Made by a program: the position numbers
Source of the DNA: Escherichia coli
Lineage (GTDB): Bacteria > Pseudomonadota > Gammaproteobacteria > Enterobacterales > Enterobacteriaceae
Assembly (NCBI RefSeq): GCF_030013595.1
Contig: NZ_CP122768.1
Direction: 5' to 3' (one strand)
DNA: 64,000 nt
In this document: positions 60,001-63,000 of the stretch, one piece after another
Layout: each line of letters begins with the position of its first letter
Position numbering within the stretch: position 1 is the stretch's first letter

Positions 60001-63000
60001 GCTGCCCTCTCCAGCCTGAACTCAGGTCTGTACTGCACCGGACGTATTCTGCGCTCGATGGCGATGGGCGGTTCCGCACCGAGTTTTATGGCGAAAATGA
60101 GTCGTCAGCATGTGCCGTATGCCGGGATTCTGGCGACACTGGTTGTGTATGTCGTCGGCGTATTCCTCAACTATCTGGTGCCGTCGCGCGTATTTGAGAT
60201 TGTGTTGAACTTCGCGTCGCTGGGAATCATCGCTTCATGGGCGTTTATCATCGTGTGCCAGATGCGCCTGCGTAAAGCGATTAAAGAAGGCAAAGCCGCG
60301 GATGTCAGTTTTAAACTGCCTGGCGCGCCCTTCACTTCATGGCTGACATTACTGTTTTTACTGAGTGTTCTGGTGCTGATGGCGTTCGATTACCCGAACG
60401 GGACTTATACTATCGCGGCGCTGCCGATTATCGGTATTTTGCTGGTTATAGGCTGGTTTGGTGTGCGCAAACGCGTTGCTGAAATTCACAGCACTGCGCC
60501 AGTCGTCGAGGAAGATGAAGAACAACAGGAAATTGTGTTTAAGCCTGAAACGGCGAGTTAATTGCAAAATTGCCCGGCTACGTGCCGGGCAAATTCAAAT
60601 TACTGACGAAGGTGCCGGATACGGCGTGATAAAAGTCAGGCAAGTCTCGCCGTTTTCACCCTCTCCATATCTATTACAGCGCAATACGAATCACATCGTC
60701 CGGCTGGGTAGCTTCCTGCTGTTTAGTGGATTTTTGTTTCACACTGACATACAGCGTTTTGCCATCGGCAGACAGCGCCAGGCTGTTCGGATGAGTCGGC
60801 GTATCGAACGTTTTCACCACTTTATAGCTTTTCGCGTCAATCACACTGACTTTACCTGCCTGACGATGCGTTACGTAGGCTTCATTACGCGCGGGGTTAA
60901 ACAGCACAGCCAGTGATTCCGGTGCCGCAACCTTCGCCAGAATATTGCCATTACGGGTATCGACCACTAACACTTCTGCCGCTTTAGAGTCGGTGATAAA
61001 TGCACGCTGTCTGGCGGTATCAAGGCTGATGTTGATAAAGAAGTGCTCTTTGCCGTCATCCAGCAGCTTTTTACGGCTGAGGATTTTATTGTCGGCGGTG
61101 TCGATGGTAATCAATTCGCCATCAGCGTTAGTGGTGTAAAGACGTTTGCCTTTGCTATCCAGCGCCAGACCTGTACTCATTTTACCGGTGTTCTGGATGG
61201 CGGTTTTCAGTTTGATGTTCTCGCCATCAACGACCCAAATCACGCTCTCTTTACCAATACCACTGATATAAACGGTGTTCGTGGCATCGTCAGCTACCAG
61301 CTCACGCGGTTGCAGCGGGCGCACCTCTTCCGTGCGCTTACGATCATCCAGCACCAGACGGCCTTTCACCTCGCCCGTTTTGGCATCTATCGCCGTGACC
61401 GCGCTGTTTACGGTGTTACCAAACCACAACGTCTGAGTCGTGTTATTGATGGTGGCACCAAACGGCTTAAGATCGTTATGTATCGCCTGCGTCACTTCCA
61501 GAGTGACCGGATCAAGACGATAAACCACGCCACCTTTATCCAGTTTGCGGCTTTGCGAAGTAGCAAGCCACAGCGCGTTCTCCTGCTGGCTATAAGCCAT
61601 TTCGTAGGCACCTTTACCTACCGCTTTACGCAGCATTTCTTCTGCGGCCTGCGTACTGAATGATGAAGCAACAAGCAATGAACCTAACAGTAATGAACCA
61701 CGCAGGCGCGATGAAAACAGATGACGTAAATGCATGACGACTCCCTTTGATGAACCGATATTTTTGCTGCTTCACAATGCTTCGCTAAGCGTAATCATCG
61801 TTACGCTCTTGTTATAAATGGGAATGGTAATCATTATTTTCTCAAATGTGGAGCATTTCTTGCCGTTACGACTACAATTTTCTCAATTACTTAACGTATT
61901 GTGCCGTTTCGTTTTCCATAAATTTACAATTTTATTACCATGACGGCGTTTTCCCATACTTAACCTGGCTTTTTTCATGAAGATTTTTTCCGTCCGACAG
62001 ACCGTTTTGCCCGCGCTGCTTGTCCTTTCCCCCACCGTTTTTGCCGCTGATGAACAGACCATGATTGTCAGTGCCGCGCCGCAGGTGGTTTCAGAACTGG
62101 ATACCCCAGCAGCCGTGAGCGTGGTGGATGGCGAGGAGATGCGCCTGGCAACACCGCGCATTAACTTGTCCGAATCACTGACCAGCGTGCCTGGTTTGCA
62201 GGTACAAAACCGGCAGAACTATGCGCAAGATTTACAGCTGTCGATTCGCGGATTTGGCTCCCGCTCCACTTACGGAATTCGCGGTATTCGCCTGTATGTT
62301 GACGGTATTCCCGCTACCATGCCCGACGGACAAGGGCAGACATCCAATATCGATTTAAGCAGTGTGCAAAATGTGGAAGTGCTGCGTGGCCCCTTCTCTG
62401 CCCTGTATGGCAACGCGTCTGGCGGTGTAATGAATGTCACCACCCAGACCGGACAACTGCCACCAACCATTGAAGCCAGTAGTTATTACGGCAGTTTTGG
62501 CAGCTGGCGCTATGGGCTGAAAGCAACGGGCGCAACGGGAGACGGCACACAGCCCGGCGATGTCGATTACACCGTCTCAACCACGCGTTTTACGACCCAC
62601 GGCTATCGTGACCATAGTGGCGCACAGAAAAATTTAGCCAATGCCAAACTGGGCGTACGCATTGATGACGCCAGCAAATTAAGCCTGATTTTCAATAGTG
62701 TGGATATCAAAGCAGATGACCCAGGTGGGCTAACCGAAGCAGAATGGAAGGCGAATCCGCAACAAGCGCCACGCGCTGAACAGTACGACACGCGAAAAAC
62801 CATCAAGCAAACTCAGGCTGGGTTGCGCTATGAACGTAGCCTGAGCGCACAAGATGATATGAGTGTGATGATGTATGCCGGGGAGCGAGAAACGACCCAG
62901 TACCAGTCAATCCCGATGGCACCACAACTTAACCCGTCGCATGCGGGCGGCGTGATTACTCTGCAACGCCATTATCAGGGGATAGACAGCCGCTGGACAC

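What the first reader, a model, noticed from the sequence alone, without database searches (positions are those of the whole stretch)
61820..61838. Fur-box-like site between divergent yncE and yncD
A 19-bp segment matches the Fur consensus at about 15 positions and lies between a beta-propeller gene and a TonB-dependent receptor gene, consistent with iron regulation.
Basis: partly seen in the sequence, partly recalled or inferred. Interest (0 to 1): 0.25.

Follow-up and report, generated by a model that had tools for sequence, protein, structure and literature searches.

The report
Known Fur operator of yncE promoter
The flagged 19 bases are the already documented binding site of the iron-sensing repressor Fur that shuts off the E. 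coli gene yncE when iron is plentiful; the finding is real but ordinary, and the neighbouring transporter gene yncD (now pqqU) is at most weakly affected by it.

Summary
Window 61820-61838 (GGGAATGGTAATCATTATT) matches the Fur consensus at 15 of 19 positions. It lies in the 241-bp gap between yncE (- strand, 60674-61735) and yncD/pqqU (+ strand, from 61977). A match this good is expected about 0.2 times per 64 kb and 0.001-0.002 times per 241 bp.

A Fur matrix built here from 13 other Fur ChIP peaks scores the site at 16.4 bits. Held-out genuine sites score 12.3-25.5 bits.

The box is the most conserved non-coding block in 65 Enterobacteriaceae intergenic regions. It stays about 100 bp upstream of the yncE ATG, even in Citrobacter loci where yncD is not next door.

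Published Fur ChIP-seq and ChIP-exo peaks in CFT073, W3110 and MG1655 map onto it. yncE rises 9- to 280-fold in fur mutants.

The best-conserved promoter candidate puts its -10 hexamer (TACCAT, 61824-61829) inside the box, so repression by promoter occlusion is the likely mechanism. This step is inferred, because I found no experimental transcription start.

yncD is a PQQ transporter, unchanged in MG1655 fur mutants and modestly derepressed in W3110 and 042.

Verdict: an already known yncE Fur operator, of low interest.

The parts
61820..61838 (.). The 19-bp Fur box as flagged (GGGAATGGTAATCATTATT; AATAATGATTACCATTCCC in yncE sense)
   Evidence: 15/19 to the consensus. The identical 19-mer is found in CFT073, W3110 and MG1655, under or overlapping the published Fur peaks.
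61817..61841 (.). Extended Fur operator made of two overlapping 7-1-7 sites centred at 61826 and 61832. In yncE sense these are TGATTACcATTCCCA (61833-61819) and AAATAATgATTACCA (61839-61825).
   Evidence: PWM hits of 16.4 and 8.3 bits, 6 bp apart. This is the most conserved non-coding block across 65 intergenic regions (0.87-0.89 identity). The 35 bp around it are identical in 5004 of 5412 E. coli records.
61824..61829 (-). Predicted yncE -10 hexamer: TACCAT in E. coli, TACTAT in most genera, TATTAT in Salmonella and Atlantibacter. It lies inside the Fur box.
   Evidence: T1, A2, A5 and T6 are conserved, and the spacing to the -35-like block is a fixed 17 bp. This is an inference; I found no experimental transcription start.
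61847..61852 (-). Predicted yncE -35 hexamer TCCACA, within the conserved block GCTCCACATT (61844-61854)
   Evidence: At least 95% conserved in 65 sequences. It is kept in Citrobacter loci that lack yncD.
61788..61807 (-). Conserved stem-loop at the start of the yncE leader (AGCGUAA-CGAUGA-UUACGCU)
   Evidence: All 7 pairs show compensatory changes. 93% of cells are paired, against 33-53% when the partners are slid. RNAalifold predicts the same helix. There is no Rfam match.
61769..61783 (-). Leader block GAAGCAUUGUGAAGC, complementary to the RyhB core
   Evidence: Conserved. Predicted duplex energy is -23 to -30 kcal/mol against -15 +/- 3 for shuffles, in 10 genera. RyhB activation of yncE is published.
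60674..61735 (-). yncE coding sequence (353 aa periplasmic seven-bladed beta-propeller), the gene this operator controls
   Evidence: ORF, annotation, Pfam PF21783 and PDB 3VGZ/3VH0/7SEU.
61977..64000 (+). yncD/pqqU coding sequence (TonB-dependent PQQ receptor). It runs off the end of the window. It is the divergent neighbour and not the main target.
   Evidence: Annotation, Pfam Plug and TonB barrel domains, and literature.
61913..61941 (+). Candidate proximal yncD promoter: TTTCCA, 17 bp, TACCAT. The Fur box lies about 110 bp upstream of the start this promoter implies.
   Evidence: The conserved blocks are TTTTCA and TAACAT in other genera. Inference only.

Best explanation
This is the Fur operator of the yncE promoter. 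With iron present, Fe2+-Fur dimers occupy two overlapping 7-1-7 sites spanning about 61817-61841. That stretch contains the predicted -10 hexamer (TACCAT, 61824-61829) and most of the spacer of the yncE promoter, whose -35-like TCCACA lies at 61847-61852. RNA polymerase is therefore excluded and yncE is silent.

When iron runs low, Fur leaves and yncE is transcribed at 10- to nearly 300-fold higher levels. RyhB is released from Fur repression at the same time. It pairs with the yncE leader and adds a few-fold more.

Shown: the sequence match, its conservation, in vivo Fur occupancy (published peaks mapped here) and Fur-dependent expression (published).

Inferred: the exact promoter, the transcription start (about 61815-61819), the occlusion mechanism and the number of Fur dimers.
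For: Sequence: 15/19 to the consensus, with a chance expectation of 0.001-0.002 per intergenic region. An independent PWM gives 16.4 bits, within the 12.3-25.5 bit range of held-out genuine sites.

Conservation: the box is found 94-106 bp upstream of the yncE ATG in nearly all of 77 Enterobacteriaceae loci, with a median of 20 bits. Three Pseudescherichia-type loci with a shortened leader have it at -55 to -59. It is the best-conserved non-coding block. It is identical in 92% of 5412 E. coli records.

In vivo binding: the CFT073 ChIP-seq peak position falls inside the site. The W3110 and MG1655 ChIP-exo peaks overlap it and are reported in iron-replete cells only.

Expression: yncE rises 147-fold in fur- CFT073, log2FC is 3.1-8.1 in 8 of 9 strains, and YncE protein is overproduced in a fur mutant. 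yncE is listed in the direct Fur regulon and in the Fur iModulons.

Promoter overlap: conserved TCCACA, 17 bp, TAC(C/T)AT, with the -10 inside the box.

The box follows yncE when yncD is absent.
Against: I found no experimental transcription start for yncE, so the overlap of box and -10 rests on conservation alone.

The predicted promoter matches the sigma-70 consensus at only 8 of 12 positions, and the tool's promoter scan missed it.

I could read no in vitro footprint or gel shift; McHugh 2003 and Baba-Dikwa 2008 are not held.

The E. coli box is a weaker match than in most other genera (TTCCCA instead of TTCTCA). Four other places in the window score as well without known Fur binding. The 15-bp core consensus is not rarer than chance.
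Confidence: 0.93

Rival explanations
1. The box is a shared, bidirectional operator. It represses yncD/pqqU as well as yncE and so ties PQQ uptake to iron status. Possible routes are a distal yncD promoter that reads through the box, spreading of Fur along the AT-rich DNA, or supercoiling coupling with the strongly induced divergent yncE promoter.
For: In W3110 the single peak is assigned to both genes. yncD rises with log2FC 2.95 (about 4-5 to 32-33 units) in the fur mutant, and in strain 042 by 2.02.

In MG1655 the wild type already expresses yncE highly (about 300 units) and yncD at about 30, the same as the derepressed W3110 level, although the two strains have identical intergenic DNA.

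The only sigma-70-like hit from the tool is on the + strand at 61771-61798. A transcript from it would run through the box towards yncD.

yncD co-purified with yncE in RyhB MAPS, which the authors attributed to overlapping head-to-head UTRs.
Against: yncD is unchanged in MG1655 fur mutants (log2FC 0.12, not significant). It is stated to be neither Fur-regulated nor iron-induced.

Its substrate is PQQ, not iron.

The conserved proximal yncD promoter candidate starts about 110 bp from the box.

The + strand distal promoter elements are not conserved outside Escherichia.

The box persists where yncD is absent.

yncD appears in the Fur regulon of only 2 of 9 strains.
Confidence: 0.25
2. The block is conserved only because it is the yncE core promoter or the site of some other regulator. 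Its likeness to a Fur box would then be incidental AT-richness.
For: The predicted -10 lies inside the block. Comparable PWM scores occur at unbound places in the window. The 15-bp core consensus is at chance level.
Against: Conservation covers about 25 bp in the 7-1-7 pattern, not just a hexamer, and other genera sit closer to the Fur consensus (20-25 bits).

Fur ChIP peaks in three strains centre on the block and appear only with iron.

yncE derepression in fur mutants is very large.
Confidence: 0.03
3. Chance match with no function.
For: A second 15/19 match exists in the window at 49423-49441 with no sign of function.
Against: Expected 0.001-0.002 per 241 bp. The position and sequence are conserved across many genera. 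In vivo binding and regulation are published.
Confidence: 0.01

Closest known systems
The yncE Fur box of E. coli K-12 (attributed to McHugh et al. 2003 by papers read here; Fur ChIP-exo/ChIP-seq targets in Seo 2014, Beauchene 2015, Banerjee 2020 and Gao 2023)
   Same: It is the same locus and the same sequence. The 19-mer is identical in MG1655, W3110 and CFT073, and the published peaks map onto it. [quoted passage not shown]
   Different: Nothing differs in kind. The window's strain differs from K-12 at 3 of 241 intergenic positions, none of them in the box. Added here are the cross-genus footprint, the promoter inference and the observation that the box follows yncE rather than yncD.
Classical Fur operators at iron-uptake promoters (fhuA, fepA-fes, entS-fepD, cirA, ryhB, sodA)
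   Same: Overlapping 7-1-7 / 19-bp architecture placed on the core promoter. Binding occurs only with iron. Derepression in fur mutants is large. The PWM score is in the same range (fold changes).
   Different: The controlled gene encodes a periplasmic beta-propeller of unknown function, not a recognised iron transporter. The E. coli box is a mid-strength match (16 bits against a median of 18.5). There is a single cluster rather than the multiple peaks seen at fhuA, entC or nrdH.
Shared Fur operators in divergent iron promoters (fepA-fes, fepD-entS, fepB-entC)
   Same: A Fur site sits in a short gap between divergently transcribed genes.
   Different: In the ent/fep cases both transcripts are strongly Fur-repressed. 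Here only yncE is. yncD is unaffected in MG1655 and weakly affected in 2 of 9 strains, and its candidate promoter lies about 110 bp away.

Membership tests
Fur operator (Fur box) of Enterobacteriaceae | Match to the 19-bp consensus GATAATGATAATCATTATC, or equivalently to overlapping 7-1-7 inverted repeats | tested here: met
   15/19. Two 7-1-7 sites match at 10/14 and 11/14, offset by 6 bp (read from the sequence). A de novo PWM gives 16.4 and 8.3 bits, within the leave-one-out range of genuine sites. The short 15-bp core alone is not significant.
Fur operator (Fur box) of Enterobacteriaceae | Fur occupies the site in vivo, depending on iron | tested here: met
   Published peaks were mapped here onto the sequence: CFT073 1711868 inside 1711864-1711882; W3110 1524928-1524940 against 1524918-1524936; MG1655 peak overlapping 1523204-1523222. 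The two ChIP-exo peaks carry the binding condition 'R' (iron-replete) only. The experiments themselves are from the literature.
Fur operator (Fur box) of Enterobacteriaceae | The adjacent gene changes expression in fur mutants or on iron limitation | tested here: met
   From the literature. yncE: 147-fold, log2FC 3.1-8.1 in 8 of 9 strains, 16-fold on iron limitation, and protein overproduced in a fur mutant. yncD: not changed in MG1655, modestly raised in W3110 and 042.
Fur operator (Fur box) of Enterobacteriaceae | The operator overlaps the core promoter (-35/-10/start) of the repressed gene | tested here: inconclusive
   A conserved TCCACA, 17 bp, TAC(C/T)AT arrangement places the -10 inside the box. 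However, the match to sigma-70 is only 8/12, the tool's scan missed it, and I found no experimental start site.
Fur operator (Fur box) of Enterobacteriaceae | Conserved in orthologous promoters | tested here: met
   Present about 100 bp upstream of the yncE ATG in nearly all of 77 loci from about 20 genera. Three loci with a shortened leader have it at -55 to -59. It is the top conserved block and near-invariant in E. coli.
Fur operator (Fur box) of Enterobacteriaceae | Purified Fur binds in vitro (footprint or gel shift) | not testable with these tools
   No paper I could read reports it. McHugh 2003 and Baba-Dikwa 2008 are not held.
Bidirectional Fur operator shared by divergent genes (fepA-fes type) | Both divergent transcripts are Fur-repressed through the same site | tested here: not met
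   yncD log2FC is 0.12 in MG1655. It is in the Fur regulon of only 2 of 9 strains and is described as unresponsive to Fur. The box persists without yncD.

The most novel reading that the evidence does not exclude
The yncE control region may do more than a simple Fur switch, in two ways.

(i) Tight Fur occupancy, or the very strong divergent yncE transcription that follows its release, may modulate pqqU about 4- to 8-fold in some backgrounds. That would link uptake of the cofactor PQQ to iron status.

(ii) The yncE leader carries a covarying stem-loop with a conserved loop, which I did not find described in the papers read here, next to a conserved RyhB-pairing block. Fur, RyhB and yncE would then form a coherent feed-forward loop with a structured RNA element at its centre.
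Probability: 0.3. Interest if true: 0.3.

Novelty: already known. Interest (0 to 1): 0.1.

Why it matters
It matters little as a discovery. yncE has been listed as a direct Fur target since 2003 and in every genome-wide Fur study I could read.

The check is useful as a calibration. A first-pass reader working from sequence alone located a genuine operator to the base.

It also shows that the neighbouring gene's family (TonB-dependent receptor) was a misleading clue. That receptor imports PQQ, and the box belongs to yncE.

The remaining open question is biological rather than regulatory. YncE is among the most strongly Fur-repressed E. coli proteins, is a vaccine antigen, and still has no known function.

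Tried and rejected
1. Promoter scan with the tool. It found no - strand promoter, only a + strand TTCACA-16-AATCAT at 61771-61798. I first considered TATAAC (61811-61816) as the yncE -10. I rejected it because it is not conserved and has no -35 at 16-18 bp.

2. Experimental transcription start. The Cappable-seq supplement had no entries near the locus. A full-text search for yncE with 'transcription start site' gave nothing usable.

3. The original papers, McHugh 2003 and Baba-Dikwa 2008, are not held.

4. The Chen 2007 information-theory Fur paper does not mention yncE.

5. PWM as sole evidence. The yncE site ranks only third in the window, and similar scores occur in the narI and ddpC coding sequences and in AT-rich spacers with no Fur peak. 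The 15-bp consensus with up to 3 mismatches is at chance level.

6. Full-length RyhB-leader duplex folding was uninformative, with 11% of shuffles as good. Only the RyhB core region gave a clear signal.

7. A link between yncD and PmrA, recalled from memory, found no support in the papers held.

8. Rfam search of the intergenic region found nothing.

9. Assuming the window is collinear with strain PCN033 was wrong. The window lacks a 6.8-kb island and is about 98.2% identical elsewhere.

Full report
**What is there.** The window is E. coli. The 241-bp spacer is present in 5411 of 5426 complete genomes and is 100% identical to strain PCN033. yncE (353 aa) lies on the - strand at 60674-61735. 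yncD, now annotated pqqU, starts on the + strand at 61977. Early in this report I took the yncD start as 61978; the ATG is at 61977. YncE hits the Pfam YNCE beta-propeller family and is identical in length and near-identical in sequence to PDB 3VGZ. YncD has the Plug and TonB-dependent barrel domains. The flagged bases 61820-61838 read GGGAATGGTAATCATTATT and match the 19-bp Fur consensus at 15 positions.

**Is it more than chance?**
- First-order Markov simulations expect 0.2 matches of this quality per 64 kb, or 0.6 with the AT-rich composition of the spacer. That is 0.0008-0.002 per 241 bp.
- For a position weight matrix, I took 13 other Fur ChIP-seq peak positions in CFT073 from Banerjee et al. 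2020. I fetched 200 bp around each and learned a palindromic 19-bp motif by expectation-maximisation with no Fur seed.
- The result was AATGATAATCATTATCATT at 18.8 bits, the classical box in its 7-1-7 register.
- In the spacer this matrix scores 16.4 bits at 61817-61835 and 8.3 bits at 61823-61841. Two overlapping sites 6 bp apart are what the 19-bp consensus is thought to be made of.
- In leave-one-out tests the genuine sites score 12.3-25.5 bits (median 18.5). The yncE site beats 5 of the 13.
- There are limits. The site ranks only third in the window. Similar scores occur inside narI and ddpC and in AT-rich spacers, and MG1655 ChIP-exo shows no Fur peak at any of them. The 15-bp core consensus TGAnAATnATTcTCA with up to 3 mismatches is at chance level, with 26 found against 19 +/- 5 expected.
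- The sequence score is therefore consistent with a real site but not decisive on its own.

**Conservation.** One scan of species-representative genomes with YncE returned 80 loci from about 20 genera of Enterobacteriaceae.
- The divergent yncE/yncD pair is kept in 68 of them.
- In nearly all of the 77 loci with enough upstream sequence, the best Fur-matrix hit lies 94-106 bp upstream of the yncE ATG. Three Pseudescherichia-type loci with a shortened leader have it at -55 to -59.
- The median score is 20 bits. Most genera read AATAATGATTACTATTCTCATT, which is closer to the consensus than E. coli.
- In an alignment of 65 distinct spacers, the box (61817-61840) is the most conserved non-coding stretch, equal to the yncE ribosome-binding site.
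- Within E. coli, the 35 bp around the box are identical in 5004 of 5412 records.
- Nine Citrobacter loci have no yncD in the 1.5 kb upstream of yncE, yet keep the box and the block next to it at the same distance from yncE. The box belongs to yncE.

**Published binding and expression, mapped here.**
- Banerjee et al. give a CFT073 Fur ChIP-seq peak at 1711868 with height 845, assigned to yncE and the yncD pseudogene. In NC_004431.1 the site occupies 1711864-1711882.
- Gao et al. 2023 give a W3110 ChIP-exo peak at 1524928-1524940. The site there is 1524918-1524936.
- Their MG1655 sheet has a peak at 1521238-1521250 in old coordinates. Its gene column is printed one row out of step (ldhA, paaH and ydcM all sit beside coordinates of the previous gene). 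Adding the 1975-bp version offset gives 1523213-1523225. That agrees within 1 bp with the W3110 peak transferred to MG1655, and it overlaps the site at 1523204-1523222.
- In window coordinates this 13-bp peak is 61817-61829. The two ChIP-exo peaks are listed for iron-replete cells only.
- Expression: yncE rises 147-fold in fur- CFT073, falling to 18-fold if ryhB is also deleted. Log2 fold changes are 3.1 in MG1655, 8.1 in W3110, and 3.6-5.5 in six more strains.
- YncE protein is overproduced in a fur mutant. Transcript rises 16-fold on iron limitation.
- yncE is named in the direct Fur regulon by Beauchene 2015 and Banerjee 2020 and in both Fur iModulons. [quoted passage not shown]

**How it most likely works.**
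- Upstream of the box, in yncE sense, lies an almost invariant GCTCCACATT. Reading TCCACA (61852-61847) as a -35 and counting 17 bp gives TACCAT (61829-61824). This is TACTAT in most genera and TATTAT in Salmonella and Atlantibacter, with T1, A2, A5 and T6 conserved and the spacing fixed.
- This places the -10 in the centre of the stronger 7-1-7 site and the start near 61815-61819. Bound Fur would then cover roughly -24 to +1 and exclude RNA polymerase, as at classical iron-uptake promoters.
- This step is inferred. The promoter matches the consensus at only 8 of 12 positions, the tool's scan missed it, and I found no mapped start site.
- A better-looking TATAAC at 61811-61816 is not conserved and has no -35, so I rejected it.

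**The neighbour.** YncD is the TonB-dependent importer of pyrroloquinoline quinone and was renamed PqqU. Grinter and Lithgow state it is neither Fur-regulated nor iron-induced. In MG1655 its log2 fold change in the fur mutant is 0.12. The conserved candidate for its own promoter (TTTCCA, 17 bp, TACCAT, 61913-61941) starts about 110 bp from the box.

The picture is not entirely clean, however:
- In W3110 yncD rises from 4-5 to 32-33 units (log2 2.95) and in strain 042 by 2.02.
- MG1655 and W3110 have identical spacers.
- In MG1655 the wild type already expresses yncE at about 300 units and yncD at about 30. One reading is that yncD is mildly repressed only when Fur control is tight.
- The + strand promoter-like site at 61771-61798, and the remark that yncD and yncE co-purify through overlapping head-to-head UTRs, offer a route.
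- Those promoter elements are not conserved outside Escherichia.

I rate a real, modest bidirectional effect at about one in four.

**Other features of the region.**
- The yncE leader begins with a 7-bp stem and 6-nt loop (61807-61788). All seven pairs show compensatory changes in 47 sequences. 93% of cells are paired, against 33-53% when the partners are slid. G-U pairs make sense only on the yncE strand, and RNAalifold finds the same helix. Rfam has no match.
- Just downstream, GAAGCAUUGUGAAGC (61783-61769) is complementary to the RyhB core. Predicted duplexes are -23 to -30 kcal/mol in ten genera, against -15 +/- 3 for shuffles. This fits the published activation of yncE by RyhB.
- Fur therefore represses both yncE and its activator RyhB.

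**Verdict.** The element is the already described yncE Fur operator. It is not new, and the TonB-dependent receptor next door is largely a bystander.

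Noticed in passing
window 61788-61807 (- strand): Stem-loop at the 5' end of the yncE leader (AGCGUAA-CGAUGA-UUACGCU). 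All 7 pairs covary across 47 Enterobacteriaceae sequences, the loop C(C/G)AUGA is conserved, and there is no Rfam family. Its function is unknown; mRNA stability or sRNA/protein docking are possibilities.
   Followed up: partly
window 61769-61783 (- strand): Conserved leader block GAAGCATTGTGAAGC, complementary to the RyhB core (CACAUUGCUUCC). Predicted duplexes are well below shuffles in 10 genera. This is a likely pairing site for the published RyhB activation of yncE. A second short complementarity to RyhB GCACGAC at GUCGUC next to the start codon appeared in the predictions.
   Followed up: partly
window 61890-61941 (+ strand): On the yncD side there are conserved blocks. One is a TTAAC-N10-GTTAA palindrome; in E. 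coli (61890-61909) the right arm is degenerate. Another is a -35/-10-like TTTTCA...TAACAT. Most genera also have a box ACATGTTCCATTTGGTTCG between the -10 and the ATG, which Escherichia lacks. These may be the real yncD/pqqU control elements; the regulator is unknown.
   Followed up: no
window 49423-49441: The only other 15/19 match to the Fur consensus in the window (GAACATCATATTCATTATC). It lies inside a 144-aa ORF with no Pfam hit, next to an RHS-repeat/HNH-toxin gene, in DNA of 32% GC. It is probably a chance match in AT-rich acquired DNA.
   Followed up: partly
window 24618-24636: GGCGAATAAATCTCA upstream of adhP is a weak Fur-like sequence (5.8 bits). It coincides with the region of the published adhP Fur ChIP peak, which shows that bound sites can score far below unbound look-alikes.
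   Followed up: partly
window 62056-62123: MG1655 ChIP-exo lists a second iron-replete peak that maps inside the yncD coding sequence (about 62087-62123; flagged as not seen in the earlier study). The nearest Fur-like sequence is TGACAATCATGGTCT at 62056-62070. Its meaning is unknown.
   Followed up: no
window about 21412-21440: Compared with strain PCN033, the window lacks a 6.8-kb island between osmC and ddpF (3-hydroxybutyrate dehydrogenase, GntP permease, CoA-transferase, thiolase, LysR regulator). The rest aligns at about 98.2%, so the window comes from a different strain.
   Followed up: partly
L042, L048, L050 (Pseudescherichia and relatives), upstream of yncE: These loci have the Fur box only 55-59 bp from the yncE ATG because the leader hairpin and the RyhB-complementary block are deleted. 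They are a natural variant lacking the post-transcriptional part of the control region.
   Followed up: no
Gao et al. 2023, Dataset 2, MG1655 sheet (not in the window): From about peak P39 onward the gene-name columns are printed one row out of step with the coordinates. As printed, yncE appears beside the peak inside yncD, and adhP appears beside the yncE peak.
   Followed up: yes
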